A stretch of DNA of 64,000 nucleotides, from assembly GCF_009914755.1 (NCBI RefSeq), contig NC_060926.1. One strand, 5' to 3'. Source of the DNA: the human T2T-CHM13v2.0 reference genome, Homo sapiens. This document shows positions 14,552-37,889 of the stretch, piece after piece (position 1 is the first letter of the stretch; each line of letters starts with the position of its first letter). Below the pieces are notes generated by a model. The model did not search any database. It saw only the letters and a list, made by a program, of their open reading frames with translations, and was not told the origin of the DNA. The position numbers and the translations under genes were made by a program.

Positions 14552-14805
14552 GGCCAGTGGCAGCACCAGTAAGTGCCAAGGATACCAGAACCACTGGGGC
14601 AGCTGGAATAACAAGCCCAAGTATGGGGGTCCCCCGTGCTGGGCACATCCCAGGTATCTCCCTCCCCACCCATTGCCACAGGACACCTCTGGGGACTGGG
14701 TGCCTCACGCCCCTTCTGTCTTGACTGCCCTCCATGCCCTGCCCCACAAACGCTCTGATAACAGTCTGTCCCTGTCTCTCTCCTGCTGCTCCTATGGAAG
14801 CGAAG

Positions 14806-15937: not shown

Positions 15938-17061
15938 GTAAGTAACGGCCTTACCTGGGCCTGAACTGCCCCATCTCACCACGCTGTCCTGCGCTGCCCT
16001 CACTGCTCAGTCAGCCTCCACCCATCACCCTGCCCCATCCATCTCTCTGTGCATTTCTTCACCCCCTGCTGCCACTCCATCTTCCCACACTGCTCCCTCC
16101 TCCTCCTGAGCCATCACCGCCCACATCCCCCTGCTCCCACCTGTCCTGGCTCACCATGCCATCTCCATGGTCTCCTGGACCCTGCTGTCCCTTCCTTGTC
16201 TCCTCCAAGATCTCCAGTTTCTCAGGGGCCCTCTTTTGCCTCACCCATTTGGGCTCCAGTTGTCCCCAGGATCCCTCCCCCGACCCGGGGGCCCCCTTGG
16301 TGCCTGCTGTCTCAGCAGCTGCTGCCTTTTCATCTCTCTGCACATTCCTGTTCCCATGTGGGCCTTTTTCTGGGAGGAACAGAACCTTTCCACACGGCAG
16401 CTCCCGGGAGAGCAGGAGAGAGCAGGGGAACAAGCCAGCAAGCAGGAGAGAGAAGAGAGTGAGGTGGCCAGGGGCAGATGGGGCAAGGGGCCTGTGAAAG
16501 CAGGAGGCCATGGGCTGGGGGTGGCAGGGGGCTGGGAAAGGGAGGGGCTGGAAATGGGGCCAGGCCAGAGGGAGAGGGCGGGAGTGATGGTGGCAGGGGG
16601 CTTGCAATGATTTCTCTCATGGGAAACCCCTAAGTCCCTGAGGGTGGGATTCAAGGTTGTCCCAGGAGGGGGTGTGAGGAGCGGAGGTGTTGGAGGCACT
16701 GGAGCCATTTTTGGAGATTTGGGGCTCGCAGATACAGGAGGGAGTGCTATAGTGGAAGAGGGGAGTGGCTGAGAATAGAGGGACTGGGGCATTTGGGGAG
16801 CTGAGGGGGGCCTGGTTTGTGATGGGTATGGGTGTGGGGGCAGCTACCACCGTGCAGGAGAAAGAAGGGGCCTGGTGGGGGAGGCTGCTTTGAGGGTGGT
16901 TAGAGCAGGGCTAGCGGTGGGCAGGGGAGAGGGCCAGGGCTGGGCCACGGCCAGGGGGAGGCTCCCTTGGCTTATCTTCTTGGCCTTACCCGGTGTTCCT
17001 GTGCCCTGGACTTGCCTTTCCCTTCCTGCCTTTCTTTACCAGGCCCCAGCCAGAGCCTGGA

Positions 17062-17075
17062 GTTGCTATGGCAAC
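17062..17075. promoter_or_regulatory. RFX X-box GTTGCTATGGCAAC
   Basis: Near-perfect palindromic match to GTTRCYATRGYAAC. Confidence 0.6.
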
Positions 17076-17469
17076 TTCGGAGGAACCCATTTCCTTAGTG
17101 ATGTCTATGGTACAGAGACTGGCCTGGAGCTCAGAGCTGCCGGCAAGAGGCCTCCTCTGCTGTCCTCAATTTCTCTCCAGGCCTCACCCACTTCCCAGAG
17201 GCTCTTCCCTGGGGACTCTGCGGCCCTTCCCCCAGAGAAGACACTTCCTCCCTGCAGGTGGCTGGCTGGGGTTTCTGTCTCTCAGGCCACTCTGCATTGC
17301 CACCACCCCTTTTAGCCCCAGTCAGAGGTGGGTCTGTCATGTGGGTGGCTGACTCAGGTAGGCTAAAACATCCTTAACTCGGGACCCCTAGAACTGCTCA
17401 TGGCTGGCACCCTACTACTTGTCCTCCCTTCTGTGCCCCTGGAAACCCAGACACTTTGGAGGAAATAAG

Positions 17470-17690
17470 GGCTCAGGATTCTGACTGCCTGGGTTTCAAT
17501 CCTAGCACCAATCATTTCCCAGCTGTGTCACCTTGGTAAGGCATTTAATCTTTTTTATGCCTCAGTTTCTTCATCTGTAAATGGGGGTGATCACAGTTCT
17601 TACCTCACAGGGCTGTTGTGAGTATTAAATGACTCAATGCATTTTAAGCACTTGGTACAAGCCTGGCACTCAGGAAATATTCAATGAGCC
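17470..17690 (+). mobile_element. MIR
   Basis: gcctcagtttcttcatctgtaaatggg...cctcacagggctgttgtgag core. Confidence 0.8.
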
Positions 17691-18750
17691 ATTTTACAGA
17701 TTTTTATTAAGCTCTCTCTGATGTGTCAGGTATGATAATACATTTAATTCCTTTTTTTTTTTTTTTTTTGCTTATCTTTATGTGTGATGTGCCCCCTCAC
17801 CCACCCCCTCCTCCCCGCAAGGGTCCAGATGGGGAAAACTGAGACCCAGCTCTTGGGCACCAAAGCTCTGTTAAGTGAAAGGGATACTCTGGGGTGACCG
17901 GCTCCTTCCCTCCTCCTTTTCTCCCACACTCCCTATTCAGGCCCACTTAGTAGCTATTTCTGAGCTGAGTTATTTCAGAGCATATCCCTGTGGGGGGGGC
18001 CTTCTGTACTTCTCAGGGGGGATTTCTAAGGACTCAAGGTAGCTTTGCCAGGGGAAGCACAAGTCAAAGGCCTATCGGGGGGCAGACTGAGCAAGGAGAG
18101 TAGGAGCCTGGGCATCCCGTTGCCACCTGCTGTGTCCCATCAGTGCTCGGGGTGGCGGCAGGTATAGGCTCAGGTCTACACAGCAGCTAGGGAATCCTAG
18201 GGATGGGGCACTGCCCCCCAAAAGGCTTGTGCCTGGTCCAGGAGGCTGTTGCTTGGCTTCCAGGGACCACTAGGAAGGGGTGTGCCCTGCTGATGATGGG
18301 CAGGGGTGTGGGGGCCAGCTGGGGGCTGGAATGAGTGGGTGGCTGCATTCCTGAGAACGCCCCTCCCCACCCCACCCTCTTGTCTTCCCTCCCCACTTCA
18401 TCCTTTGGGTCCTAAGCCTCATTCTTTTCTCTCCCTCATGCTCAGTTCTGTTTCCGCTGTTTCTCGGCTTCCAGGGCTGGGGGGAGGAGGCTGGCCCGAG
18501 TCCTGGGGCTGAGTCTGTACCAAGACCCAGCCATTAGCCCAATCTTGTGGTTCCAGAGCCGCCGGCCTCTCCCCAGCACCTGCTCTGGCTGTGCGCTCCT
18601 CGTGGGGGTGGGGGTGGGGGGCAGGAGGATCTGGCCCATGTCACCCCCAAGCCTGCCCAGCATGCCCACCACCCAATTCCTGTCACAAGCTAAGGGTCTA
18701 GGAGAGGAGGCCCCCTGAATCCTCTACCCTTCTCCATCTTGGTTCTGCAG

Positions 18751-20048
18751 CAGCGTCCCTCAGAGCGGGTTGCGCAGGGAGGAGCCCGACCTTCAGCCTC
18801 AACTGGCCAGCGAAGCCCCACGCCGCCCTGCCCAGCCGCCTCCTTCCAAATCCGCGCTGCTCCCCCCACCGTCCCCTCGGGTCGGGAAGCGGTCCCCGCC
18901 GGGACCCCCGGCCCAGCCCGCGGCCACCCCCACGTCGCCCCACCGTCGCACTCAGGAGCCTGTGCTGCCCGAGGACACCACCACCGAAGAGAAGCGAGGG
19001 AAGAAGTCCAAGTCGTCCGGGCCCTCCCTGGCGGGCACCGCGGAATCCCGACCCCAGACGCCACTGAGCGAGGCCTCAGGCCGCCTGTCGGCGTTGGGCC
19101 GATCGCCTAGGCTGGTGCGCGCCGGCTCCCGCATCCTGGACAAGCTGCAGTTCTTCGAGGAGCGACGGCGCAGCCTGGAGCGCAGCGACTCGCCGCCGGC
19201 GCCCCTGCGGCCCTGGGTGCCCCTGCGCAAGGCCCGCTCTCTGGAGCAGCCCAAGTCGGAGCGCGGCGCACCGTGGGGCACCCCCGGGGCCTCGCAGGAA
19301 GAACTGCGGGCGCCAGGCAGCGTGGCCGAGCGGCGCCGCCTGTTCCAGCAGAAAGCGGCCTCGCTGGACGAGCGCACGCGTCAGCGCAGCCCGGCCTCAG
19401 ACCTCGAGCTGCGCTTCGCCCAGGAGCTGGGCCGCATCCGCCGCTCCACGTCGCGGGAGGAGCTGGTGCGCTCGCACGAGTCCCTGCGCGCCACGCTGCA
19501 GCGTGCCCCATCCCCTCGAGAGCCCGGCGAGCCCCCGCTCTTCTCTCGGCCCTCCACCCCCAAGACATCGCGGGCCGTGAGCCCCGCCGCCGCCCAGCCG
19601 CCCTCTCCGAGCAGCGCGGAGAAGCCGGGGGACGAGCCTGGGAGGCCCAGGAGCCGCGGGCCGGCGGGCAGGACAGAGCCGGGGGAAGGCCCGCAGCAGG
19701 AGGTTAGGCGTCGGGACCAATTCCCGCTGACCCGGAGCAGAGCCATCCAGGAGTGCAGGAGCCCTGTGCCGCCCCCCGCCGCCGATCCCCCAGAGGCCAG
19801 GACGAAAGCACCCCCCGGTCGGAAGCGGGAGCCCCCGGCGCAGGCCGTGCGCTTCCTGCCCTGGGCCACGCCGGGCCTGGAGGGCGCTGCTGTACCCCAG
19901 ACCTTGGAGAAGAACAGGGCGGGGCCTGAGGCAGAGAAGAGGCTTCGCAGAGGGCCGGAGGAGGACGGTCCCTGGGGGCCCTGGGACCGCCGAGGGGCCC
20001 GCAGCCAGGGCAAAGGTCGCCGGGCCCGGCCCACCTCCCCTGAGCTCG
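18751..20048 (+). CDS. SPEG: SPEG exon 4 (large Pro/Arg/Ser-rich linker; exonic CpG island)
   Basis: ttctgcag| ... G|GTAAGG; 1298 nt open frame (ORF 18770..20221). Confidence 0.97.
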
Positions 20049-21912
20049 GTAAGGCCTCAGGGAGGGCTGACAAGGTGCCTGAACCCCCGTCGGGGGGCGT
20101 TTGTGGAGAGCAAGACTGCTCAGCAGGAGCCGGGGGGTCGGGGGTTTCGCCTGGGGCTGCTAGCCAGCTGCAAGGGTGGGTTTGCCAAAGAAGGCACAGA
20201 CACAGGCTCGACTTTGAGTGAAGGATTGTCAAAGTCCTTGTGCTAGGACTGCTACTGGTGAGGCAGAGCGTGAGTGTTGTGATGGAGGCTAGGTGAGGCT
20301 GAGATGTGAGCTAAGACTGGTGCCCAGATGCCCGCCATAGCTCCCCTGGGTCCAGTGGCCTGCTAGGCTGTTGGATCAAGAACCACTACTGGGGGGATGC
20401 ACTGGTGGGAACCTAAGGACCCCCCTCCATACCCCCAATCCCTCTGTTGGGGAGAGATGGTAGATGGTCTGAAATAATTTTCAAATCCCTGTTACAGACA
20501 CGCTTTGTGCCAGATAACTCTTTACTCTGCCTCTCCCACCCGGGCACCATCCCCTGACCCATGTGTGGCCACCCAGCCTGCCCTTCTAGCCTCCTCACCT
20601 CAGGCTTACACCCCGCATGGCTGAGCTCACTGTGGTCCCTACACAATGCCTGCCTGTGTGTTGTCTCCCAACCTTCCCATGGATGATGACCAACACCACC
20701 AACAGGAGAATGGCTCTGCACCCCACCCCTCATCCTGCACATCAACTCGAGGCCCACTCCTGGAGAGAGGCAGAGGAAGGCGTCCTTGACCCACTTCCAC
20801 TGCTCCTCCAGAATAGATGCCTCTACCTGCTGCTCCTGGGAGACCCTGCCAGGATCTCTTTCATTGCACTTACCATACTGTATTTTTCTTCATCAAAATT
20901 ATTTTGCATTTAAGTATTACCACCTTAGAATCTTTAGAGATAATTAGGCCCCTGTCCATCATCCTCCTGGACACCATTATTGCAAACACACAACTATGTG
21001 CCAGCATTGTGTTAACTAGGCCCTTACAGATGTTATTTCATTTCAGCCTATATGTCAGTTTCAGAGGGTCTTTTCCCCTCCATCTTACAGATAACAAAAC
21101 TGAGGCTCAGAGAGGCTAATTTGCCCAAGGTTTTGTAGCTAGGAAACAGCAGAATTGGGATTTTCACTGCTTTTTTGGCTATGTACATTGTCCTTTATCT
21201 AGCTTATGGAATGTCAGAGTTGGAGAATGCCCAGAGACCCATGACAGTGGAGTTTGTCATCTCTCTGTATGTATGAGCTTCCTGTAAGCAGGGACCACTG
21301 GTCCTTCCTCTAGTGTTCTTGGTACCCATACAGTACTCAGTATGCCGGGAGTACAGGGTCACTATTTGGTGAACGGATGAAATCAAATCTGATCTTCGTA
21401 GGCCTCTCAGACTGCCTACCATTCACTCTTTTGAATCTGACGGCTTCACACATTTGACAATTCACCTCGTGTTGCTCTGTGACACCGCTGTTATTGCTTA
21501 AGTCTTGGGTTGCTTTTAGCTTGTTCTTTGTCTGTTTGAAAGCTTGTGCCCCTCCAGGTGCCTTGCATAGGGCCTGGTATGCCATACATGATGGCTGACG
21601 TGTTAAAGACATACACAGTGCAGTCCTGTCTTTCTCCAGAAGCCAACGCTCTAATTGTGGATGAAGTTGAGGAACGGCCACACTAACATGGAGTCAAGGC
21701 TGCCCTGACCTGTTTCGAGAATGCTCCTTCTGACTTCCTTTTTTCCCTAAGGACATTCAGGAGGCAGACCCTCTTCTCCCCAAGTCCCTGCTTTCTAGAA
21801 GCCCCTCTGTCTGGGTTTGGCTTTCTAGGATGCAGGCCACCAGGACTCTCTCTCCCGCTGTCATCCCTGCAGGGATCATGGCCCCTTACCCCGTTATTCC
21901 TGTGTCCGGCAG

Positions 21913-22056
21913 AGTCTTCGGATGACTCCTACGTGTCCGCTGGAGAAGAGCCCCTAGAGGCCCCTGTGTTTGAGATCCCCCTGCAGAATGTGGTGGTGGC
22001 ACCAGGGGCAGATGTGCTGCTCAAATGTATCATCACTGCCAACCCCCCGCCCCAAG
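21913..22056 (+). CDS. SPEG: SPEG exon 5 (Ig, first half)
   Basis: ggcag| ... G|GTGAGC; ESSDDSYV...[10 protein letters not shown]. Confidence 0.95.
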
Positions 22057-22401
22057 GTGAGCTCCAGCACTGGGCCAAGGTGCGGTCGAGGTTGGGAGGG
22101 GGTGTGTGAGAAGGGAAGGGGAGGTTCCCCCGGACTCCTCCAAGGGAGGGGTGGGAAAGAGGGGAATTATCCCCTCCACGGGGGCTGCCCTGACTTGGGT
22201 GTGTGTTCAGGGACATTTCTCAGGACCCCCGAGAGAAGGGAGGGCAACCTGAGCTTCCCAAAATGAGGGCGGACTCTTCCAGATTCCCTGGGGTGCTGAG
22301 AGGAGAGGTTTGGTCTCCTGTGTGGTGTGTGGGGTAGGAGTAGAGATTCTCAGTGGGCGCCTGTGGGCCGTGGCGAGCCGGGTCCCTGTGCCTCCCCACA
22401 G

Positions 22402-22584
22402 TGTCCTGGCACAAGGATGGGTCAGCGCTGCGCAGCGAGGGCCGCCTCCTCCTCCGGGCTGAGGGTGAGCGGCACACCCTGCTGCTCAGGGAGGCCAGGG
22501 CAGCAGATGCCGGGAGCTATATGGCCACCGCCACCAACGAGCTGGGCCAGGCCACCTGTGCCGCCTCACTGACCGTGAGACCCG
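22402..22584 (+). CDS. SPEG: SPEG exon 6 (Ig, second half)
   Basis: ccccacag| ... G|GTAGGG; VSWHKDG...DAGSY. Confidence 0.96.
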
Positions 22585-25557
22585 GTAGGGAGCCCATCAA
22601 CCCTGGGGCTGGGTGGGGGCAAGCCGTGACTCTTCCCTGGCCCAGGCCCCAGTCCACCTCCCTTCCCACTCTCAGCCTTGAGCTTGGGCACCCCGCCAGC
22701 ATACTTAGTCCATGCAGTCCCTTCTGGGTGTCGGCAGCTTTGGTGAAAGCGTTTTAAATGGCCCTGGCCTCAGGGCAGGGGCCAAATCCCCAAGGCGCAC
22801 AGAAGGCTGGCCAATTCATGAAGTCAGTGAAATTTGTGTTTAGCCATCCTCTAAATGCCATCCTCCCATGGCATTTCCCTGAACAGGGTCCTATGGGGAA
22901 AGCAAATTGTCCTTGAGTTTCCGAGAAGAAGAATCTCTCCGCTCACAGGGTTTAAGAGCCACCACAAGCCTTCTGAAGTCATTTCCCCTGTAAGACAGTC
23001 CCCCCTCCCAGTAAAAAGAGATGCTTTCGAGTGCCACAAGCCACTTCCCCCCTACTTTTCTTGAACCCAAAGTTGTAAAAAGGGTACAGCCAAGAGCACT
23101 TCTTGGGCTGGCAGTGCCGAGGCTGCCTTGTTTTCTATTTTTGTGAAAGCCCTTACTTGGTGTCAGACTACTTTCTTTGGGATTCAGCCCAGTTTCTTTC
23201 TGGTTCAGCTGGATCAGTGTCGGTGTACATGGCCAGTTCAGCTCATTCAGCTTGCGGGGCCTGACAATGCACTGACCCCGGGCCTGGGGTTCGGGGAGGT
23301 GAGGATGGTCAGGGGGTATTACAGAAGGAAAACACACTCAACCCTCAAGGGGGTTCCCACTGGGTGACCAGACCTGGATCAGAGGACCTAGGTTGGGGGA
23401 CAGTGCGGAGCAGATGGATCTAGTGCCGAGGACATCCGAGCCGTTGCTTAGTGTTCTGGGATGCCTGCGCTGAGAGACGTTGGTGCCCTGAAGGAGGCTG
23501 GGATTTTAGACCGGCACGGGGAAGGCGGGACATGCCAAGAGGGGGAACAGCACATGGTGTTCTGTCCCTTCCTTCCATGAAGTGCTGCAGGAGACAAGAT
23601 GGCAGAGCCTGTGTGCCCATCCCAGGGCCTCAGCACCTGAGCAGTGAGGGAGTTCTTGATGCATCTGATCATAGTCTCGTGCTCCAGTAGAGCCTTTGGT
23701 TGCACGGTCTGGCTTGTGCCACTGCAGGTCTTCATCCTCCTTAGCTGCATATCCCTCCCGGGGCCCATTTTCCAGGCTTTCTCCTCCTCCTACCCCTCCT
23801 ACCCCGCTGAATCATGCCCGTCCCTCCACCACATGCTTCTGTCCTTCCATCACCTCCGGGATCTGGCTTCTGACTCAGCTCCCAGCTCCCCTGAGGGGGC
23901 CCAGGCCTGGCTCCAGGACTCCAGTCAATACCTGGCTTGGGCTGAAATTTGGCGAGGGGTGGGATGGGGGTGCCCCGATACTGGCTCAGGGCCATTTGGG
24001 AGCCTTTTATGGTTGGAAAGGCAGCTTGGGGCGAGGCAGTTGTCAGCCCTTGACTGAGAGTTCTGTATTTGCGGCATAGAACCTCCTGAGCTTCAGTTTC
24101 CTCATTTGTAAACCGGAGATAATGACACCGTCCTCACGGATGAAAGCGAATGTGTGAACGAGCTTTATGAACTGTAAAGCTGTAGACAAATGTTAGTTGT
24201 TAGCGTTATTAACGGGTGCTGTTGTGTAGAAGAGCTCAGGTTTCTACAAGGATCTGGGAAGTGCCTTATCCTTCTCTGTCCCTTTCTTCAGCCCATCTGT
24301 GCCTTAGGGACTCCACCTCTCCCCTTGGAAGGCCCATATCCTGCAGACCCTCTGTATTTCCCAGCCCCTGTGTCCTCAGCTCATCACAGCATCTCGGCAC
24401 CTCTGCCCTGGGGAGCCAGAAAGCCTTCATTGCATTAGTCTGTTGCATCAGGCATTACAGCAAGACAGCCACCTCCTTAAGTCAGGCTGGCTCGGGGGCC
24501 CCAGGGCCTGGGGGGCAGGCATGTGGGTCCAGACTTGGCTCTGGCTGTTGTGGAGCAAGCTGACTTTCTTACCCTACAAGGCACTGTTTAGTCCAGAGTG
24601 GCTGGATGGGGGCCAGTGGACTTGAGAGCAGCAAAAGTGGGTGGAACCTGGGGATGGCACAGACATCTGGCAAGGGGTGGTCCCAGGCCTGGAGTCTGCA
24701 GGCAGTGAGGGGTGGGGCCAGGGGAGGGAGTCCAGCAGTTTGCCCGTAGGCCTGGTGGGGAGCAGGTAGAGGGAGGCAGTGGGCAGTGTATTGTGGGAAG
24801 AGGCCTGCGTGCAGCCACCGCCCTCTCTTGCTCCTTCCCCTCCCCCTCTTGCTCTTCACGCTGCCCCTGCCCAGTGCTATGGTAACCAGGGCTGGCTGCC
24901 CAGTTCCCTCTTGGGGTCCACCCCAACAGGGCCTGCTTTTGAGGACCCACAGATCTCAATTCCTGGTTGGGAGCCATGGTAACCAGGGAATGGATAACTA
25001 GAGAATGCGGCCCCATGGACCATGGTTTAGGGGCAGGGTCTGTGCGGAAAGGAGCTGGTCCTCACCAGCTCCCCTGGTCCCTCCCACCCTTTCCACCCCA
25101 CTGAATCATTCTGTTGAGACCACAGCCATTCTCCCAAAGCGGATGTGTGGATGGGGGCAGGTGGCTTGGGAGTGTGAGAAGTGTGCTTAACCAAAGCATT
25201 CCCCACCGCTGCCCACATCCATCACACAAGTATTTATTGAGTGCCAACCAGGTGCCAAGTGCTACAGCTCTCTAAACAGTTTCTTCTGTTTGGACAGTGT
25301 CATAGACTTTCCCAAGCCCTTTCACGTCTCTTCCCTGGCGATAACATTGTGCCATACATATCCCTTGGAGGGACGTGTGGCAGGTGGGGACATTCCCATT
25401 TTATGGATGAGAAGACAAAAATGTGAATTGAAAAGTGAGGTAGAGCTAGCACCAGGCCAGCAGCCTTTATTTAGCACTTGCCATCTGCCTAGGGATGTTT
25501 TCAGCAACAACTGATTTAGGGTGATGGAAATAACTGCCCATGAAGCAAATAAACTTA

Positions 25558-25995
<438 letters not shown>

Positions 25996-26105
25996 CTATT
26001 ATTATGCCTATGTTACGAATGAGGAAACTGAGACTTGGAAAACTTTAGCCAATTGCTCTCTGGACACAGTGGCTGACACCTGTAATCCCAGCAGTTTTAT
26101 CTGGA

Positions 26106-26312
26106 GCAGCATTGATCAATAGACATTTCTGTGATGATGGAGATGCTCTATATGTGTGTGGTCCAGTATGGTAGCCCTAGCTACATGTGGTTAGTGAGCA
26201 CTTGAAATGCAGCTGCGGTGACTGAGGAACTGCATTTTAAATTTAATTTCATTTTAATAACTGCTTTTAAATAGTCTCAGGTGGCTAGTGGCTGCCTTCT
26301 TGGGATGGTCAG
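26106..26312. mobile_element. MER3 (hAT-Charlie) DNA transposon relic
   Basis: caatagacatttctgtgatgatgga...gagcacttgaaatg...gactgaggaactg...gtggctagtggct. Confidence 0.8.
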
Positions 26313-27404
26313 CTCTAGGAGCTTAGGGCCAGCTGGAGGCTGGAGCTATGATTTGAAACCCTGTCTCGGTCTCTCAAGCCTACACTCCTAACCATGACAC
26401 TATCCCACCCCCCTTTCCTGTTGCTCTGAAGAAGTTCGAGGTTGAGGTAGAACTGAGCTCATGAGCTCACTGGGAGGGCACTGGTGATGCCCTCTGTGGG
26501 TGGGTCCGACTGGGGGCTTTCTCTTCTTCCTCTATTGACTCCCCACCTCCAGCACAGCTGTGGTCCTTCTGTTTCCTTGCATGCCTGATGTGAGCACACC
26601 CAGCTTCCCCACCGTGCGCCCCGAGAGGAGGCCCTCTGGGTGCTGGGCAGGAGGAAGTGGGAGTATGGGAGGCCCCATGGGCCTGGGCCTCATCCTCCCC
26701 ACCTCCAGTCCTTCCCTCAACTACAGGTCTCCTATATTTGAGCCCAGGATTCTTGCATTTTCCAGCCAAGACCTTGGCCTCTTCATTGTACCTTAGCTGG
26801 TCATGGTTTTCTTGGCTGTAAAGTGAGGATCTTCACACCAGCCAGGCCACCTACTTGGTGAGATTCCTGAGGGTCTGTGAGGAGGGCAAGTTGGACACTT
26901 GGGACAGAGGATATATAGCTCATCGAAGCCCATTCTGGTCCCACTCATAGAATCAACATGACCACAGCAGAAAATAGGTTGTTTATTGGGGGCCATGAAA
27001 ACAAAAACAAGGAAGAAAACCTTAGCATCCATGTCAGTCCCTGTCTTCTCTTGCCCCTGGTCTCTGGCCACCTGTGGCATAGTTGCAGATTCTCCCTTGT
27101 GATGGCAGTGGCTGCCGTTGGGGAGGATGCCACATGGCCCCCATCGTCAGTCCTCGATGGGGGTTTGGACAACACCAGACAAAGCAGTGTGGCATGGTCC
27201 CCTTGCCCAAACTCAGCCCTTCCTCTACCCTCCTGTCTGCCAGAAACAGGCCTGCCTGACAGGTGGCCTCCCCGAAGCTGGTACCTAGAACGGGGGCCAT
27301 CACTCACAGCCTGTCAGAAGAATTGAGAGCTCATTTACTGTTGTTGCAGCCACTTTTCCTCACCTGGAGCAAACTAACATAGTCATATATAAGAAATTCA
27401 TCAT

Positions 27405-27670
27405 GACCGGGTGCGGTGGCTCACGCCTGTAATCCCAGCACTTTGGGAGGCCAAGCAGGGTGGATCATGAGGTCAGGAGTATGAGACCAGCCTGACCAAC
27501 ATAGTGAAACCCTGTCTCTACCAAAAATACAAAAAATTAGCCGGGTGTGGTGATGGACGTCTCTAATTCCAGCTACTTGGGAGGCTGAGACAGGAGAATC
27601 ACTTGAATCTGGGAGGCAGAGGTCTCAGTGAGCTGAGATCGTAACATTGCACTCCGGCCTGGGCGACAGT
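27405..27670 (+). mobile_element. Alu, 3'-truncated (no A tail)
   Basis: Dimer ends abruptly at gggcgacag. Confidence 0.9.
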
Positions 27671-28009
27671 ATTAATCACTTCTGGGGCTAGGTCAGGCTG
27701 ACCATGTGAAATGATCTGTTGGCTTGTACATTTTGAACTAAGCCTGAAACATTCTCAGTCCAAGGGGAAACATTCATGTCAGCACCCTGTGGAAATGCCC
27801 ACCTCCTGGCCAGCCGTGTCCTCCCTTTCCCTGACTTTTCCGCAGTGGGGTTACCACAGCAGACATTTCAAGAACTGCCTGTGGAGGACCTACTGAAACA
27901 GCACATGTGGAGGGCCAGCTGGGAAGGGCCAAGCCACAGGCAAATGCTTGCTAACCTGCAGCCTATCACTCCCTTCCTCAAGAATCATAAGGAGGAAAAA
28001 CCGTTTATG

Positions 28010-28320
28010 GACTGGGTGCCGTGGCTCACACCTGTAATCCTAGCACTTTGGGAGGCCAAGGCAGGTGGAACACTTGAGACCAGGAGTTTGAGACCAGCCT
28101 GGCCAACATAATGAAACCCCGTCTCTACTAAGAATACAAAAATTAGCCAGGTGTGGTTGTGGGAGCCTGTAATCCCAGCTACTGAGGGAGGCCGAGCCAG
28201 GAGAATCGCTTGAACTTCGGAGGTGGAGGTTGCAGTGAGCTGAGATTACACCAGTGCTTTCCAGCCTGGATGACAGACTGAGACTGTCTCAAAACAAAAG
28301 CAAAAACAAACAAACAAAAG
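28010..28320 (+). mobile_element. Alu (S-type)
   Basis: Full dimer with (CAAA)n tail. Confidence 0.9.
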
Positions 28321-29029
28321 AATTGTAAAGAGTCCGCCTTGCCTACAGAGTAAAGGCTGCACACCTTTGTGTGGCCTCTACCATCTGCACCCATAGGGCA
28401 AAAGGAGCCAGAGGCCTGAGGCTGGCCCTCGGGTGGCAGTGGGAGGCACCTGCTTGAACAGTGGATGCTCCACTCCTTACTTCTTTACCCAGTTTATAGA
28501 CAGACAGTTGAGCTATAGTCCTCTGCACACATGGCTTTTGCTTCAAACTTTTCCGCATGCACTTTCCTCTGCCTGGAATACTTTTCCCTTTTTCCTGCAA
28601 ACTGCAATTCCAATACTGCCTCTTCCTTCAGTTCTCTCTTTTTCCCTGGGCCAAAAGTCATCTCCCGCCTTCTATACTCCCACGCCCCTTACCTGCTGCT
28701 CTCTTGCTACCTCATACTTCCTGCTTGCTCTTGTAGTCACTTGTGTATCTGGTTTGTCTTCCCCACCACCCAGAAGGCTCCTGAGGACATGACCATGTCT
28801 TTGCCACTCCTTAGCACTGGCAGCTGTGCCTGGGGGCCCTCCTGGACAGTTAGGGGCTGTGTGGACTGCAGAGCTGTATGTGAGGTGGCAGTGAGTAGGC
28901 AGAGAGCCCCATGACTTTTCAAGCCCTTGAGCAACGTGGGTGACACACAGAGGTGAGGCTAGGCATGACACCCAGCCACAAGGGTCATGAGGCTCTGCCT
29001 ATGAGGGGAGCTTGGCAAAGAGACCATGG

Positions 29030-29270
29030 AGCGGTGGTCCTCAGAGTGAGGCCCCCAGACCAGCAGCATCAGCATCACCTGAGTATGTGTTAGAAATGCA
29101 GTTTCTTTTTTTTTTTTTCCCAATAAGCGTTTTGCACTCTTAAGAAATGCAGATTATTGGCCCCAGCCCCGACCTACTGAATCGGAAATTCCGTGGGTGG
29201 GGCCCAGCACTCTATGGTCTAAGGAGCCCTCCAGGTGATTCCGATGCACAGAAAACCTTGAGAACCACTG
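29030..29270. mobile_element. MER5A DNA transposon relic, interrupted
   Basis: gaccagcagcatcagcatcacctg...ttagaaatgca...cctactgaatc...ccctccaggtgattc...ttgagaaccactg. Confidence 0.82.
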
Positions 29271-29443
29271 CCATAGAGTTAGAGATTGTGCCCAAGATGG
29301 GAGACCAGGTCATGCCAGGGGAAGCACATGGGCTGTGTAGCCAAACCTCCTAGGTTCAAAGCTCTGCTCTGAGGTTGAATGGCCCAGTGAAGGGGGCTTA
29401 GTGATACCACCTCTTAGGGCTGTCCTCCTCCCATAAAGATCAG

Positions 29444-29628
29444 CAGTGGTCCCTAAGCTTTCATGTGCCTAAGAGTCATCTGGGGTGCTTTTTAAAATGC
29501 AGTTTCCTGACATCTCATTTCAGAAAATCTAATTCTGCAGGCTGGAGTAAGGTTGAGGAATCTATATTTTAAATAAGCCCGAGGTGGTCCTGATGTGAGT
29601 AGGTCAAGTAACATTCTGAGAAGCCCTG
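29444..29628. mobile_element. MER5-family relic
   Basis: cagtggt...tcatctggggtgctt..taaaatgcag...ggaatct.tattttaa. Confidence 0.6.
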
Positions 29629-31339
29629 AAGCAAAGGGCTGTGTGCGACACCTTTTATGTACTAGATAATTCGCAGTGGTGGCTGCAACTCTGTCTATTG
29701 TGAGAACACATCAGGGGACGCTGAAACAGTTGGGGTCGGTGGATGTGCTGGTCTGAGGAGAGGGAGTTCCCTGTGTGCTTCCTAACGCCAGTATTTTCAT
29801 CAAATGAGTTTGACCTGAGAGTGATGTTGAAAGGGCAGACATGAGCATGGGGTCAGCGTGGGGGATTGGGAGCCAGTGTGAAGGGGCGGTACTTCCGTGG
29901 TGGGTTGTTCGGGGCCATTGAGTGTATGTGCCTATTAGGTTTAGGGGGGCACCTGCCCCCTCCTTCCTGGCTGGTGTAACTGTGTTTGCCACAGTGAGAG
30001 TTGGGCTTGTGGGTGCAGCAGGGCTGGGATGTCAGGGACTGGTTCCAAAGATGGTTTTTGCTATGTGGCCAGGGAAAAAACTAGGTGGCACCGGATTCTG
30101 GTATGGAGCCTCAGGAATCCTCGATCAGCTTCCTTGGTCACTCACTTTTGGAGGTATGGAGGGGCAGAGGCTACTGCCTTGTCTGGAAGAGGCCTGGGCT
30201 GCTCTGACAGTCTGTCTCTCCAAGGGGCTTGAGGATGGGGGTCTGCTTCATGGCTAGATGCCCTCCAGCATGCTGTTCCCCTGGGCACCACCAGGGGTCT
30301 CTGAGGCTCCCTGCAAACCTTGACCATCTGGCCTTCAGCTCTGCTTCCGTTCCCAGTCCCTGGGCCCGTGAGCCTCCTCAGTACTGTCCAGCCTGGAGGT
30401 GACCCTGGGGCAGGACTCCAGGCTCCATAGAGGGGTAGGACCGCCCACCTGCGGAGCCATGCCTGTGATCTCAGCATCAAATGCCTTAAGCACCAAATGC
30501 CATTCTGACTTCCCTCCCCAACCCTACCTCAAGACAGCCAGCCTGAACCGTGGGCCCCTCCTCTGCCCGGCCCCCAGCCCTCCTTCCTTACTGGCCATGC
30601 TGGGAAACACAGGTCATGGCTTGGGAATGTGGCCCCGGGTTGCGGGGTGAGGTGATAGGAAGAGGGAGAAGGACATGTGACCCCTGCTCAACAGCCCCCT
30701 TCTCTCAGGTTCTGTGTCCAAACCCTTTCCCCATCCCAGATACAAATGGGTTCTCATGATAAGGGGCCATTTGGGGGAGGCAGCCCCCGCTGTCCTCTTT
30801 AGCGGGGCTAAGGTGGGTGGCGGGCAAGTTGCCAACAGGTGCCCTGGCGGTTTGGGTAGGAAGGCTGGATGTGGGCTTAGGCCCTGTGGTGGCTGCTGGC
30901 CAGACCTTCCATGGCAGGGATGAGGGGGCAGAGGTGGGATTCTGGGCCCCCTCAGATTCTTCCCCCACCTCTGTGAAGGAGGGCAAAGATCTTGACAGTT
31001 CTCCGATTTTCGGGGCCAAAGAAAACAGGTATGCCCTGGCTCTGTAGTATTTGAGGCTCGTTAGCGCATTCCCCGGTCAGGGATCTTGGTGGTTCCGTCA
31101 GAGCAAGGGGCAACACAGGGAACATTTCCCACGGGCACCTTCTTTGGTGGACGTGTCAGAACAAATGGGTCAGGGCAAGTGTCCCTATTGGCACAGCGCA
31201 GTGCCACCCCTCCCCTGTCTTGCTCGGGGACGGAGGCCCCACACCTTGAGTCAAGGCACCGCAGAGCGGGCTTTGCTCTTGTCAGGGTCTGAAGCTGTAA
31301 GGAGAAGAAAGGCAGATCCCGCGGCTTGGGAGTGAGCAG

Positions 31340-31554
31340 AGTGGCTAAATCCAGACGGCCGCGCTCCGCCCTCCCTCCCCTCTCCCCTCTCCTCCTCCTC
31401 CACACCAGGGCCCAGGCTGCCTGTGGTCTCGGCAGGCACCACCTTCCTAGCCAGCTGCCTGCCGGCCTGCCATCCAACCTCCTCCTTCCCCTCCTCAGGC
31501 GCCTTCCCCTCCCCCAGGGCCTTCTCCGTGCAGGGCCTCAGCTGGGTCAGCCGA
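31340..31554 (+). other. SPEG: Probable non-coding first exon/promoter of SPEG-alpha and APEG-1 isoforms
   Basis: GC-rich proximal elements, two CAGCTG E-boxes (31452, 31539), donor CGA|GTGAGT 1 kb upstream of exon 7, which holds the internal ATG; start position approximate. Confidence 0.6.
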
Positions 31555-32590
31555 GTGAGTGGGGCTGGGCAGGCTGGACAGGCTGGGCTCCTGCTCCCTG
31601 GGGAGCCACGCTGGGGTGGGCAGTGGGCAGGCAGCAGGAGGGCCTGGTGCCAGGGCAGAGCCTTCAGGACAGGCACAGGCTGGGGTCTGTGTGCAGAGCC
31701 TCGGGGTGAGTTGGGGTACAGCCCTGCTGGGGGCTTGGGGTGGGGGGACCCTGGGGAGAACCTAGGGGGCTGTGGCAGTTTCATGTCTGTATTTGGCAGT
31801 CGGATAGGAGCCAGCTCAGCGAGACTGGGACCCTGGCCAGTTGCAGGGGAGGGCGTCAGGGCCCTGGGGACACCCCTCCCCCAAGGCTGACTCTGGTGCC
31901 CCCCTCCTCTTCCCCCAGGCTGAGCTGCCCTTTTTGGTGGATGACTCCAGCTCTGCTTTCCTATCCCTCGAGCGTTTGGGGGTGCAAGCTGTAGGGCTGT
32001 GGCCAACAGGTGCCCCTGGGGTTTGCACGGCAGGAAGCTGAGAAGGGAAAGGGGGAGGGGCAGGCTAGATAGTGCCGCCTCATTGGCCCTGGACCGAGGT
32101 CGGGATGTGACTTGTCTGCGGTGTGTGTTCCTCTGCACCAGGCCCAGCTCACCCAAGAAATGGGCGTCCTAGCCATGCTGCTCCAGGGTTCCATAGACCT
32201 GCTTCCCCTGCTTTTGGAGCCTGCAGTTGGTAGTTTAGGTCTCTAGTCCATGTCAGGAATGTGGGTGCCCTGCTCCAGTGGAATTCTCCCACCAGGCCCA
32301 GGAGTGGCCCCTCTGCTGCCCGAACCCTTTGCCCCAGGCCTTTCCCTATGGTGTCCCCTCCTGGGAGGATCAGCAGGGTCGGTGTTGGCAGAGCCAGTGG
32401 CAGAGGAGGTTCCAGGGGCTCAGGGAGGGGAAGAAGCTGGGCGAGGTCGCAGGAGCCTGGGGGTGAAGTCAGGGCAGGGCCGGCCTGCGGGGAGCTGCCG
32501 CAACTCCTGGGCTCTGGGCGACATTCCAGCCAGCTCTCCCAGGCTCTCTGCTCGCCTTCCTCCCTGGTAGCTATCTCTGTCTCTCTCCAG

Positions 32591-32766
32591 GTGGGTCTAC
32601 ATCCCCTTTCAGCAGCCCCATCACCTCCGACGAGGAATACCTGAGCCCCCCAGAGGAGTTCCCAGAGCCTGGGGAGACCTGGCCGCGAACCCCCACCATG
32701 AAGCCCAGTCCCAGCCAGAACCGCCGTTCTTCTGACACTGGCTCCAAGGCACCCCCCACCTTCAAG
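32591..32766 (+). CDS. SPEG: SPEG exon 7; contains internal ATG 32698 (MKPSPSQN..., APEG-1/SPEG-alpha start)
   Basis: ctctccag| ... AAG|GTCAGA; CCACCATGA Kozak. Confidence 0.96.
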
Positions 32767-33006
32767 GTCAGACCCCTGAGGCTGGGGCCTAGCCTCCTGT
32801 GTGCCCCCGTTCCTTTGGGTGCCCCCTTGTTCTTGGGGCCATGCCTAGGCAACATCAAGACCTGGAACTTTGCTCCCATTCAAACCCTCTTACCCAGAGC
32901 CAGTCTCAGCCTGGCTGTGGAAGAGTCCTCCGTCTCAGATTCCACAGCCCCCAGGACCCAAGGCTCTGCCCTGTCTTCCCCTGACACTTTGGGGTACCCC
33001 CTTCAG

Positions 33007-33095
33007 GTCTCACTTATGGACCAGTCAGTAAGAGAAGGCCAAGATGTCATCATGAGCATCCGCGTGCAGGGGGAGCCCAAGCCTGTGGTCTCCTG
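33007..33095 (+). CDS. SPEG: SPEG exon 8 (Ig)
   Basis: cttcag| ... TG|GTGAGT; [11 protein letters not shown]... Confidence 0.96.
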
Positions 33096-33343
33096 GTGAG
33101 TAGCCGCACTTTCCACCACCCACCAGCGACTCTATGCCAGGCCTGGCTCTGGGAGGTCTGGCTTTGGGTGGAAGGAAATGGAATCTTGGTGGGCTTCCCC
33201 ATGATCTGCCTCAGGGGCCTCATCTCAGGGACAGCAGTGTACTCCCCCTGGCACCCTGTCCCTTGCCCCATGTTCCAGGCTTATTTAGGGCTTCCCCTTC
33301 TGGGGAGGGGTTTGGGTCTCATGTCTGTCCATTTGGGATAAAT

Positions 33344-33930
<587 letters not shown>

Positions 33931-34098
33931 ACATGCAACAATTTGTTTCTGAGCTGCCAGCAGCCCCGAGTTAAATGTGGGTCTAAGCAGAGGGGCCTCG
34001 CTCATCCCAGGTGCCTGGAAGATGGATTACTCAGCTTGCTAATTTTTTATGGTTTGAATTCTGTTTTTCATTTTTAATTGATTGTCTGGTCCCCACTG

Positions 34099-34427
<329 letters not shown>

Positions 34428-34541
34428 TGATTTTTTTTTTTAACATTGTAAGTTTTTTCATATCCCTTTTGGGAAGTGGGAAAGCTATCTGTCCATTATA
34501 AATAAATAAAAATAAGACATGGGGAAGTTTAAGAATTATTA

Positions 34542-34862
<321 letters not shown>

Positions 34863-35147
34863 AAGAGCTAAATAGCACGGCTCCACTCTGAATGCAGCAG
34901 GGTTCCGAGAAGGGAGAGCTGCAGGCAGTTAGAAGTGACCTGGAAGCTCCTAGAGGTGGGTGGGATGGCAGAGTGGGGGTAAAAACCTAGCCCTGGAAAC
35001 CAGGGATGCCCACGGTCAGTGGGACAGATCTGGGGACTGGGCAAACTGCACAGGGAAGGAGAGGCCTGCACAGTGCTGCAGCCCCAGTTCCTGTGCACGC
35101 ACATCAGGCCCCTGGGCCCTGGGACTGAGTTCTTGCCCCTCTGACAG

Positions 35148-35323
35148 GCTGAGAAACCGCCAGCCCGTGCGCCCAGACCAGCGGCGCTTTGCGGAGGAGG
35201 CTGAGGGTGGGCTGTGCCGGCTGCGGATCCTGGCTGCAGAGCGTGGCGATGCTGGTTTCTACACTTGCAAAGCGGTCAATGAGTATGGTGCTCGGCAGTG
35301 CGAGGCCCGCTTGGAGGTCCGAG
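35148..35323 (+). CDS. SPEG: SPEG exon 9 (Ig with RGD at 35242-35250)
   Basis: ctgacag| ... G|GTGAGT; [11 protein letters not shown]. Confidence 0.96.
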
Positions 35324-36504
35324 GTGAGTACCTGATTTCTCCATGAATGCCCACCTGGCCCTGGCCCCTTCCTTCCCCCACTGTCTGCTCTCACACAGCC
35401 TCAGTTAGAGGATGCCACCACTGAAAGGGCCTTAAGGGGCCCCTAGTCCAGCTGCTTATATTATTGTTGAGTGAACCAAAGCCCAGAGACAGGAAGTGAC
35501 CTGCCCAAAGCTGCACAGCACATTGTTCCGTGCTCAGCTTACTACACAACACCACCTTCCCTGTTGCTCCATCACGGAGCCCTGGCGGCAGCCAGAGACC
35601 CTGCACCTGCCACTGGCCAAGCTCTCTCTACACTCTTCTGAGCCTTTGTCACCCTGCTCTGCCCAGGACCCTCCCTCATCCCCCTCCCCTTCTCCTCTCG
35701 CCCCTTTGCCCACCCTCCCATCCCATTGCTGTGCAGAAGCTACTGTGAGGTAGCGGTGGGGAGAGTCTGGTGGCTGGACCCGTTCGGAGGGGCCCTTGGG
35801 GTGGCTTAGGCTTGGAGCATCACAGGGACCCTAGGGTGCCAGGGTGAGCACAGCTGTGACGTGTGAAGAGGCCTGGGCCCCCAGAGCCTGGGGCATATGT
35901 GCAGGGGCCCTCTCAGGCAGCAGAAATGCCAGGCCCTGGCTAGGGGGCCCTCGAGGGCCATGGGTTTTCCTCCCCAAAGGCCACAACCGTTTATCTTGCC
36001 TTCCACCTCACCCTTCGCCTCAATGGCTCCTCGCTTCCTCTCCTCGCTTCTCACTCAGCCCCCAGCCCCTGACCTTCCCCAAGGCTCAGAGCTCAGACCC
36101 TGACAGTCATGGTCCCTCTGCTGGCCCCCCTGCCTCAGTTCCCCTCCTCTGTGCCTGCCGTTCCTGTAGTTGCCACTTCCTTGGTCTCCAGATTCTTCAG
36201 CCCTCCTCCCCGGCCTGCTTTCTCTCCAGGGCCTGGCTCTGCCTCGCTTCTCTGTATTAACCCATGTCTTGGTGCTTCTTTCTCTTGGGGATTCCTTCCG
36301 ACACCCCCAGGCTTTGGGGTGCTCCTGATCCCATGAATGCCTGGTTGCCCGGGGTCTCTGCCTGCCCAGGAACCCCGAGGAACCAGTCTCTGGCTAGCTG
36401 CCGGCCCTCGCAGCCCAGAGCTGTCCTTGGGGGAGCCAAGAGTGGCAGTGCTGCCCTGACGGTGTGAGAGGCAGCCCTCTATGCAGAAGGGCCCTAGCCA
36501 GGTC

Positions 36505-36725
36505 TGCGTGCCTGTGCGTGCATGTGTGCGTGTGCGTGCGCATGCGTGCGTGTATGTGCATGCATGTGTGTGCATGTGTGTGCGTGTGTGCGTGCGTGTG
36601 CATGTGTGCGTATGGGTGTGTGCATGCGTGTGTGTGTGTGCGCGTGTGCGTGCGCGTGTGCGTGCATGTGTGCGTGTGCATGCGTGTGTGTGCATGTGTG
36701 TGTGTGCGCGTGCGTGTGCGTATGC
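36505..36725. repeat. Complex (TG/CG/CA) alternating purine-pyrimidine repeat
   Basis: ~220 nt of gtgtgcgtgcatgt-type units. Confidence 0.95.
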
Positions 36726-36771
36726 TGCACTAACCTGCCGCTTGCTGACTGAGGTTTTTGTCTGTACACAG

Positions 36772-37580
36772 GCGAGTGAGCTCAGGGGGCCACCTGCGCT
36801 CCCCCCGCTACCCTCCGAGCCGCGCCCCTGTCTCAGGCACCTCTCGGACCTCGCTGTGTTTCACTGCCTCCTGCCCACAGACCCAGGCCTGCCGGCCCGG
36901 ACCCGTCCCAGCCTCCCCTCCCCACCCCATGCAGCCCCCAGGGGGATAGCCCATGGGCCCCTGTGGACCCTCCCTCCCCAAGTGGACACATGGCTGTGCA
37001 GGCCAGGAGGCCCACAGATGGACTGAGTGCTGGGAAGGGGCGGCTGCGAGGGGTATCAACCCCCCGAGTCTCTCCCTGAAGGGGAGCACCGGGCGAGTGC
37101 ATGTGCTACTGCTGCTACAGGCCTGTCTATCTGTTTGTCTGTCTGTGTGTCTGTGACAGTCAGGGAAGGATGCCTCGGAGCTGAGGTGGGGTGAGACAGA
37201 GTGGGAGAGATTACGGCATGGCATGGAGGGGCCCAAGGAGCAGGGGCTGTTGACAAAGGCCTTACCAGGAAGGGTTAGGACACTGACCATTCTAGAAATG
37301 GGTTTCGAATGGCACAACACTTTCTATTTCACAAAAGACCAAAAGCCAGAGGCCCCAGGCTCTGTGCTGATGAACAGCCTGGCTGAGCCCTGGCCCTGGC
37401 AGGTTTAGGGCCCATTTGGGGCCCCCTCCTTCTCTGTCAGGGCTGGGGTGCTCTGTCTGGGAATGAGGGAGTTAACCAAGTTTGGTGCAGGAGCAGGGGC
37501 AGGGGGCCACTGTAGTGAGCGTGGAGAAATTTGGAAACACCTATTTCTTAACTCAAATAAAGTCCAGTTTGTACCTATCT
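36772..37580 (+). other. SPEG: Alternative internal terminal exon (adds GE*, TGA 36777-36779) of short kinase-less isoforms APEG-1/BPEG
   Basis: Branch CACTAAC 36728-36734, acceptor tacacag|, phase-1 join gives RLEVRGE*; ATG 32698 to this stop = 113 aa. Confidence 0.85.
37556..37561 (+). terminator. Internal polyadenylation signal AATAAA
   Basis: Followed ~20 nt later by a GU/U-rich element (ggtgtgttgtgttttttttt). Confidence 0.85.
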
Positions 37581-37889
37581 GGTGTGTTGTGTTTTTTTTT
37601 TCCCCCGCCGATGTCTCTGCCACCACGTGGCCCTCTCAGTTTCCCCTCCCTCAGTTCCCTCTTGCCTCCATGAATCACCCTCCCTGGCCCAGCTTGGATT
37701 GCCATCTCAAAGCCAGGTCTGGGCATGCCTTGCTGTCCTGGCCAGGTGGGTGGGCTTTCCCCATCTCCAGAGAACAAAATGCATCTCTCTCTCTGTGTCT
37801 GTCTGTCTCTCTGTGCGTGCGTATGTGTGTCTCCCTCACCCTGTGTGTCTCTGCTCTGTGCGTGGCCCCCGTGGCTGCTTTCCCCTCAG

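What the first reader, a model, noticed from the sequence alone, without database searches (positions are those of the whole stretch)
36505..36771. Microsatellite-built RBFOX/QKI/MBNL switch in front of the internal terminal exon
Seen: the ~220-nt TG/CG repeat ends at the branch point of the APEG-1/BPEG terminal exon. It holds nine TGCATG hexamers (36519, 36557, 36561, 36571, 36599, 36621, 36663, 36677, 36691). The branch point CACTAAC (36728) is also a QKI motif (ACUAAY), flanked by YGCY motifs, and the pyrimidine tract is weak. Known: RBFOX, QKI and MBNL bound upstream of an exon generally repress it, and UG runs bind TDP-43/CELF/RBM24. Inference: this element decides between short kinase-less isoforms and full-length kinase, and repeat-length variation could tune the ratio. 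Caveat: neurons also express RBFOX, so the logic must be combinatorial.
Basis: partly seen in the sequence, partly recalled or inferred. Interest (0 to 1): 0.7.

Follow-up and report, generated by a model that had tools for sequence, protein, structure and literature searches.

The report
UG repeat before SPEG short-isoform exon
A 212-base TG-rich microsatellite sits just in front of the early stop exon that makes the kinase-less SPEG forms; its nine RBFOX motifs are largely what such repeats carry anyway, and it likely works as a TDP-43 landing pad that favours, rather than silences, this exon.

Summary
In detail: nine TGCATG lie in a 212-nt alternating TG/CG/CA repeat (36513-36724) ending 47 nt before the acceptor of SPEG's internal last exon (36772-37577). 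TGCATG clusters are common in human TG repeats (12 of 19 control repeats carry them; 1,470 genome matches to a triple-motif pattern), and the excess here is about twofold (p 0.003-0.13 by null). The QKI and MBNL motifs lie outside the repeat. A second branch candidate (CTGAC, -24) fits better than CACTAAC (-39). The repeat has at most six pure TG units, and the intron has the same length in GRCh38 and CHM13. The new evidence is in two published TDP-43 knockdown tables: use of this exon falls (by 6-18 points in five experiments; 98% to 90% by 3'-end sequencing) and read-through rises 5-9-fold in three datasets, the opposite of repression. The repeat is by far the gene's strongest TDP-43 motif block. 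That TDP-43 acts through it is untested; a UG tract at the distal acceptor is a near-equal rival. RBFOX, QKI and MBNL effects on this exon remain untested.

The parts
35148..35323 (+). Last exon shared by short and long isoforms; its donor is spliced either to 36772 or to 37890
   Evidence: Hub annotation; donor GTGAGT at 35324
36513..36724 (+). Degenerate alternating microsatellite, 106 dinucleotide units (69 TG, 23 CG, 10 CA, 3 TA, 1 GG); 174 of 212 nt covered by TDP-43-preferred YG hexamers; nine TGCATG; longest pure TG run 6
36519..36696 (+). Span of the nine TGCATG (RBFOX motif); each is a CA unit between two TG units; predicted paired in naked RNA
36723..36746 (+). Four YGCY (MBNL-type motifs): the first at the repeat's edge, three in unique sequence over the branch region
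36728..36734 (+). CACTAAC: QKI/SF1-type motif and distal branch candidate (A at -39); single copy, no UAAY half-site within about 20 nt
   Evidence: criteria from PMC13004596
36745..36749 (+). CTGAC: proximal branch candidate (A at -24), likely the one used for the annotated acceptor
   Evidence: inference from AG-scanning rules (recalled)
36755..36771 (+). U-rich tract and acceptor CAG of the internal last exon
36772..37577 (+). Internal last exon (APEG1/BPEG end): completes ...EVRGE-stop, then 3' UTR; AATAAA 37556-37561; cleavage near 37576-37577
   Evidence: GRCh38 chr2:219466057-219466862 mapped to the window
37773..37889 (+). Long AG-free UC/UG-rich tract of the distal acceptor (exon 37890, full-length route); 30 of 110 nt covered by TDP-43 YG hexamers; 200-310 nt downstream of the cleavage site; rival site of action

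Best explanation
The stretch is an ordinary, interrupted TG/CG/CA microsatellite ending 47 nt upstream of the acceptor of SPEG's internal last exon, and it likely acts as a long TDP-43 landing pad that helps that exon be chosen, so that transcripts stop early and encode the kinase-less APEG1/BPEG forms. Shown: the anatomy; the repeat's dominance in TDP-43 motif content; the drop in use of this exon, with 5-9-fold more read-through in three datasets, when TDP-43 is depleted. Inferred: that TDP-43 binds this repeat; that bound TDP-43 keeps the self-pairing repeat open and keeps repressors (RBFOX, CELF, RBM24 types) off the branch region; that the TGCATG copies arose by CpG decay (CG to CA between TG units) and are at most a secondary RBFOX site; that skipping in striated muscle is imposed mainly by the QKI and MBNL motifs over the branch region, which are not part of the repeat.
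For: TDP-43 knockdown lowers use of exactly this exon in five experiments (0.87->0.81, 0.94->0.86, 0.89->0.71, 0.89->0.72, 0.94->0.85; padj 0.02 to 9e-16; PMC12586162 Supp. Table 3) and, independently, by 3'-end sequencing in iNeurons (0.980->0.903; full-length site 0.020->0.097; padj 1.3e-9; PMC12586192 S3/S4). Coordinates map to 36772-37577. Read-through share rises 9.4-, 8.9- and 5.0-fold (for SH-SY5Y a downstream last exon at about 43606 is the proxy). The repeat is the top 200-nt window of the gene for the six YG hexamers listed as TDP-43-preferred: 166 of 200 nt against 32 and 30 for the next two. TGCATG is generic in such repeats: 12 of 19 controls picked by a CA-free pattern carry it, 33 of their 48 CA units sit between TG units; 1,470 overlapping genome matches to a triple-motif pattern against 88 for the reversed pattern. 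Speg mRNA also falls on TDP-43 knockdown in mouse C2C12 and NSC34 (log2 -0.51, -0.35).
Against: No CLIP peak, minigene or deletion was seen. The usual rule runs the other way: TDP-43 near acceptors represses last exons, and promotes polyadenylation from downstream of proximal sites, which fits the distal UG tract (37773-37889) better. Weaker TDP-43 sites are reported to respond more to its loss. Much of the fall is a gain of an upstream intronic end: in one SK-N-DZ experiment -0.071 is matched by +0.071 upstream, and in one SH-SY5Y experiment +0.126 of -0.177. The shift is modest; the exon stays at 71-90%. No Speg splicing event appears in the mouse knockdown tables (9 of 10 files searched; MAJIQ cut-off 0.2, rMATS has no last-exon class). 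TGCATG density is about twice the control mean (token shuffle p 0.003, Poisson p 0.02), so selection for RBFOX sites is not excluded. Conservation could not be tested.
Confidence: 0.38

Rival explanations
1. The repeat is a bystander. TDP-43 favours the short forms from the UC/UG tract at 37773-37889, where it would repress the distal acceptor and promote the poly(A) site 200-310 nt upstream; tissue choice is set by the branch-region motifs and this distal tract.
For: Fits the reported position rules (binding at acceptors represses; binding downstream of proximal poly(A) sites enhances). The tract is the third-ranked TDP-43 motif window in the gene, surrounds a branch candidate at -52 and has the longest AG-free zone (117 nt) of the 40 annotated acceptors. 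Repeats of this kind are common in the genome.
Against: Motif coverage is far lower (30 of 110 nt against 174 of 212). A 212-nt UG block 9-24 nt from both branch candidates is unlikely to be inert (inference).
Confidence: 0.3
2. One reading: RBFOX on the nine UGCAUG, with QKI on ACUAAC and MBNL on YGCY, represses the internal last exon in striated muscle, releasing full-length kinase.
For: Nine motifs 75-250 nt upstream of the acceptor; 1 of 40 other SPEG acceptors has even one within 300 nt. About twofold excess over control repeats. ACUAA in the -63..-20 zone marks QKI-repressed, SF1-activated exons (PMC13004596). Four YGCY (0 of 40 others). SPEG is on the DM1 polyadenylation list. RBFOX binds the motif however it arose (recalled).
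Against: Neuronal cells keep the exon at 87-98%. Strong QKI repression at RAI14 needed two ACUAAC; here there is one and no half-site. The motifs are predicted paired (hexamer unpaired probability at most 0.003). No last-exon change for Speg in RBFOX2 knockdown H9c2 (gene 'NC', no exon-level row, low counts) or in Rbfox2-null hearts (only a 3-nt acceptor shift at another exon; last exons not mentioned in the text).
Confidence: 0.2
3. The TDP-43 effect is indirect or post-splicing: TDP-43 loss activates an upstream intronic end and destabilises the short mRNA, so the exon's share falls without any role for local UG elements in splice choice.
For: Upstream intronic end gains +0.07 and +0.13; total Speg mRNA falls in two mouse lines.
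Against: An upstream end removes short and long forms alike and cannot raise read-through 5-9-fold; a 30% loss of the short mRNA would raise a 2% share to about 3%, not 10% (arithmetic).
Confidence: 0.08
4. The repeat acts at DNA level: 102 + 110 nt of strict purine-pyrimidine alternation could form Z-DNA and slow polymerase just before the exon, giving its acceptor and poly(A) site time to be used.
For: The two longest strictly alternating tracts in the window (next 33 nt). Z-DNA propensity of TG/CG repeats is recalled knowledge.
Against: No data; does not explain TDP-43 dependence or tissue pattern.
Confidence: 0.04

Closest known systems
TDP-43-bound (UG)n repeats at 3' splice sites (CFTR exon 9 TG tract, APOA2 exon 3 GT tract: recalled; cryptic last exons in PMC12586162)
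   Same: Long UG-rich intronic block next to an acceptor; exon use responds to TDP-43 loss.
   Different: There TDP-43 represses and the repeat lies at the pyrimidine tract (recalled); here the repeat lies upstream of both branch candidates, is interrupted by CG/CA units, and TDP-43 loss lowers use of the exon.
RBFOX UGCAUG-repeat elements (fibronectin EIIIB; only reference titles seen)
   Same: Several UGCAUG in an intron flanking a tissue-regulated exon.
   Different: Those are described as conserved elements near tissue-specific exons; here the hexamers are embedded in a microsatellite class that generates them, conservation is untested and no RBFOX effect was found.
QKI/SF1-competed ACUAA branch points (RAI14 exon 11; PMC13004596, passages read)
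   Same: ACUAAC 39 nt upstream of the acceptor of an exon skipped in muscle.
   Different: One copy instead of two, no half-site, and a non-QKI branch candidate (CUGAC) at -24.
SPEG APEG1/BPEG versus SPEG-alpha/beta isoform switch (PMC8199188, PMC1352370; passages read)
   Same: This is the last-exon choice behind the four known isoforms.
   Different: The passages read give no cis-element or splicing factor for the choice.

Membership tests
Alternative last exon (splicing-coupled polyadenylation) | Own acceptor, in-frame stop, poly(A) signal and measured use | tested here: met
TDP-43 UG-repeat acceptor silencer | Long UG-rich block near the acceptor | tested here: met
   174 of 212 nt covered by YG hexamers; top window in gene
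TDP-43 UG-repeat acceptor silencer | Exon is de-repressed when TDP-43 is lost | tested here: not met
   Use falls in 5 experiments and in an independent 3'-end dataset
TDP-43 UG-repeat acceptor silencer | Direct binding (CLIP) on the repeat | not testable with these tools
   No CLIP tracks available
RBFOX upstream intronic silencer | UGCAUG within about 300 nt upstream of the exon | tested here: met
   Nine copies at -253..-76
RBFOX upstream intronic silencer | Motif excess beyond local composition | tested here: inconclusive
   p 0.11-0.13, 0.10, 0.003, 0.02 under four nulls; 3 of 19 control repeats reach 4.0 or more per 100 nt against 4.25 here
RBFOX upstream intronic silencer | Motifs accessible (single-stranded) | tested here: inconclusive
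   Predicted paired, but 53 of 98 pairs are G-U and shuffled repeats fold nearly as well
RBFOX upstream intronic silencer | Motifs conserved across mammals | not testable with these tools
   No related genomes held
RBFOX upstream intronic silencer | Exon use rises on RBFOX loss | tested here: inconclusive
   Two rodent datasets gave no usable last-exon test
QKI/SF1-competed branch point | ACUAA 20-63 nt upstream of the acceptor | tested here: met
   1 of 41 acceptors, this one
QKI/SF1-competed branch point | Second ACUAAC or UAAY half-site nearby | tested here: not met
   None within about 20 nt either side
QKI/SF1-competed branch point | ACUAAC is the branch point actually used | tested here: inconclusive
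   Competing CUGAC at -24 and an intervening AG; no lariat data
QKI/SF1-competed branch point | Exon use rises on QKI loss | not tested
   The large knockdown tables of PMC13004596 could not be read
MBNL upstream YGCY silencer | Cluster of YGCY just upstream of the acceptor | tested here: met
   4 in last 60 nt; 0 of 40 other acceptors reach 4; none inside 36513-36722
MBNL upstream YGCY silencer | Exon use rises in myotonic dystrophy or MBNL loss | tested here: inconclusive
   SPEG is on a DM1 list; event and direction not seen
Length-variable splicing microsatellite | Long pure run or length difference between haplotypes | tested here: not met
   Longest pure TG run 6; intron 1,448 nt in both GRCh38 and CHM13; only two haplotypes compared

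The most novel reading that the evidence does not exclude
TDP-43 bound to a UG microsatellite upstream of the branch point activates, rather than represses, SPEG's internal last exon and so keeps neurons and smooth muscle on the kinase-less forms; muscle RBFOX competes for the same repeat through its embedded UGCAUG; TDP-43 loss in ALS/FTD neurons therefore leaks full-length muscle-type SPEG kinase mRNA 5-9-fold.
Probability: 0.2. Interest if true: 0.62.

Novelty: new member of a known kind. Interest (0 to 1): 0.36.

Why it matters
SPEG mutations cause centronuclear myopathy and cardiomyopathy, and the switch from APEG1 to the kinase forms accompanies heart maturation (PMC8199188, passages), yet the papers searched name no element or factor for this last-exon choice. 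The work gives a first factor with a measured direction (TDP-43 favours the short forms) and two candidate sites that one minigene can separate. If the repeat is the site, it is an example of TDP-43 activating an exon from upstream, against its usual rule. It also warns that UGCAUG clusters inside TG repeats are common by-products and should not be read as RBFOX elements on count alone.

Tried and rejected
Whole-window shuffle for TGCATG: no excess overall (43 against 45), and not the right null for a repeat. The first token shuffle lost frame after the GG unit and was redone; only the latter is used. Similarity-picked repeats (L002-L008; 2 of 7 reach nine or more motifs per 212 nt) are biased toward the query and were not used as the null; from the 21 pattern matches, the repeat itself and a second match in one chr1 array were dropped, leaving 19. 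RNA hairpin as the function: the repeat folds (-120.9 kcal/mol; 0 of 60 token shuffles as stable, mean -112.3) but so does any such repeat; kept only as a modifier. Repeat-length tuning: downgraded. The mouse Speg event in Rbfox2-null hearts is a 3-nt acceptor shift at a different exon. Literature: no paper for SPEG + RBFOX + last exon or SPEG + alternative polyadenylation + RBFOX2; listings for SPEG with QKI (2 papers), RBFOX (9), TDP-43 (2), polyadenylation (20 of 22 listed) and MBNL1/RBM24/RBPMS/PTBP1 (40 of 69 listed, none holding SPEG) showed none about this element; a search for TDP-43 activating from upstream of a branch point gave nothing usable (20 of 21 listed). The primary DM1 polyadenylation paper, a DM1 muscle and heart transcriptome paper and an Rbfox CLIP paper were not held, so the DM1 direction and RBFOX binding stay open. 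Supplements not seen that may bear on claims: files 3, 11-13, 15, 17-20 and two oversized tables of PMC13004596.

Full report
Observation. The window is human SPEG (hub annotation). The nine TGCATG are at the stated positions inside a tract of alternating pyrimidine-purine units, 36513-36724: 69 TG, 23 CG, 10 CA, 3 TA and one GG (TRF array 36505-36721). After it come CACTAAC (36728-34), CTGAC (36745-49), a GAG (36751-53), a U-rich tract and the acceptor AG (36770-71). Splicing exon 35148-35323 to 36772 ends the frame at ...EVRGE-stop; the only AATAAA in the intron is at 37556. A published table lists an annotated last exon at GRCh38 chr2:219466057-219466862, which maps to window 36772-37577 with the donor, acceptor and poly(A) signal in register. 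That this exon ends the kinase-less APEG1 and BPEG forms follows from the isoform descriptions in PMC8199188 and PMC1352370 (passages).

Is the TGCATG array more than chance? Every copy is a CA unit between two TG units. CG-to-CA is the expected decay product of a methylated CpG (established knowledge). Dinucleotide shuffles of the tract give a mean of 6.8-7.0 (p 0.11-0.13); keeping C-unit positions and re-dealing which are CA gives 7.0 (p 0.10); shuffling units freely gives 4.2 (p 0.003). As an outside control I took human repeats matching a CA-free 22-base pattern (21 matches; the repeat itself and one duplicate dropped). Of 19, 12 carry TGCATG; pooled, 33 in 1,734 nt (1.9 per 100 nt against 4.25 here; Poisson p 0.02), and 3 of 19 reach 4.0 or more. 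A triple-motif pattern has 1,470 overlapping matches in the genome against 88 for the reversed pattern, and a DNA search found 103 similar stretches from only 40 of 2,527 candidates scored. So the array is a common by-product of this repeat class, with this copy at the upper end. That lowers the surprise but does not stop RBFOX binding it.

The neighbouring motifs. The repeat holds no YGCY (36513-36722) and no ACTAAY; the four YGCY and the ACUAAC lie at its edge and in the unique sequence after it. Both are unusual for the gene: 0 of 40 other acceptors have four YGCY in their last 60 nt or ACTAA at -63..-20. PMC13004596 (passages) shows QKI competing with SF1 at ACUAA branch points, but strong repression at RAI14 needed two ACUAAC; here there is one and no half-site. 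The branch A of CACTAAC would be at -39 with an AG 19-20 nt downstream, whereas CTGAC at -24 has that AG too close to use (scanning rule recalled), so CTGAC is the likelier branch point and ACUAAC a possible upstream QKI site. The pyrimidine tract is low in total pyrimidines (5 of 40 as low) but U-rich, so 'weak' is only partly right.

Length variation. The longest pure TG run is six units, and the intron is 1,448 nt in both the GRCh38 coordinates of the table and this CHM13 window. Two haplotypes are a thin test, but interrupted repeats slip little (recalled).

Perturbation data. TDP-43: in PMC12586162 (Supplementary Table 3 rows and text passages) use of this exon falls on knockdown in five experiments in i3Neurons, SK-N-DZ and SH-SY5Y (-0.06, -0.07, -0.18, -0.16, -0.09 from 0.87-0.94; the number of experiments tested was not seen). 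In PMC12586192 (tables S3, S4 and passages) the same poly(A) site falls from 0.980 to 0.903 and the full-length site rises from 0.020 to 0.097. Read-through share rises 9.4-, 8.9- and 5.0-fold. Against a local effect: an upstream intronic end takes the whole loss in one SK-N-DZ experiment and most of it in one SH-SY5Y experiment. In mouse C2C12 and NSC34, Speg mRNA falls but no Speg splicing event is listed, under cut-offs that would miss a shift of this size (PMC8983780, supplements and passages). RBFOX2: H9c2 knockdown lists Speg as unchanged with no exon-level row and low counts (PMC8600936 supplements); Rbfox2-null embryonic hearts show only a 3-nt acceptor shift at another exon, and the text does not mention last exons (PMC8881802). 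MBNL: SPEG is among 80 genes with altered polyadenylation in myotonic dystrophy muscle, seen only as a gene list in bioRxiv 10.1101/728881 (passages). QKI: untested. One paper (PMC13478751, passages) states the reverse tissue pattern (proximal end in ventricle, kinase form in cerebellum); this conflicts with the review and with the neuronal values above and was not resolved.

Mechanism. The six YG hexamers listed as TDP-43-preferred cover 174 of the repeat's 212 nt; it is the top 200-nt window of the gene (166) against 32 and 30 for the next two, the latter being the distal acceptor tract. Naked RNA is predicted to fold into a long hairpin, over half G-U pairs, that buries the UGCAUG. I therefore read the repeat as first a TDP-43 site. 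Since TDP-43 loss lowers use of the exon, the simplest local model is that TDP-43 on the repeat keeps the branch region open and free of repressors, making early termination the default, while muscle-rich QKI and MBNL (expression recalled) act on the branch region and RBFOX may compete on the repeat (confidence 0.38). The chief rival (0.30) is that TDP-43 works from the UC/UG tract at 37773-37889, which fits its reported position rules better, leaving the repeat a bystander.

Comparison and novelty. It works like known UG-repeat splicing elements but fails the defining test of a TDP-43 silencer (the direction is reversed) and cannot be filed as an RBFOX silencer or a QKI-competed branch point on present evidence. 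The isoforms are long known; the searches (open-access library only) found no description of this element, and the TDP-43 effect was found only in supplementary rows. It is a candidate new member of a known kind, of moderate interest, with a clear deciding experiment.

Noticed in passing
window 37773-37889: The distal acceptor has a 117-nt AG-free UC/UG-rich tract (longest of the 40 annotated acceptors) with UCUC runs of PTBP1 type (recalled) and TDP-43 motifs around a branch candidate at -52; it may be the real switch.
   Followed up: partly
window about 15938-16490: TDP-43 knockdown raises a 'novel' intronic end after exon 15601-15937 (0.06->0.13, 0.10->0.23). None of 12 poly(A) signal hexamers was found in 15938-16700 and the sequence is AG-rich, so the predicted end may be imprecise or an artefact.
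   Followed up: partly
window 36751-36753: A GAG 18 nt upstream of the annotated acceptor would add six residues in frame before the stop; it follows an AG-free zone of about 250 nt made by the repeat.
   Followed up: partly
window 37095-37159: Inside the 3' UTR of the internal last exon: a TGCATG (37098), three YGCY and a UGUC repeat ending in CAG, which resembles a further acceptor or a regulatory patch.
   Followed up: no
window 18748-18753: Tandem CAG-CAG acceptor; a 3-nt acceptor shift at a mouse Speg exon of similar size (1,307 nt against 1,298) changes by 0.65 in Rbfox2-null hearts on few informative reads. The match of exons is inferred from size.
   Followed up: partly
window 15938-35324: The GRCh38-to-window offset differs by 61 nt across this stretch, implying a length difference between the two references (assumes the table's start is the first intronic base).
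   Followed up: no
L004 (G000:C6:169725085-169728326) and L006 (G000:C8:9106036-9109257): Similar repeats with 17 and 9 TGCATG per 212 nt; L006's repeat runs into a T-run and CAG that looks like an acceptor. Gene context unknown.
   Followed up: no
window 13554-13599 and 14520-14552: A perfect 19-nt tandem duplication, and a short GT repeat with one TGCATG, in the region of alternative first exons.
   Followed up: no
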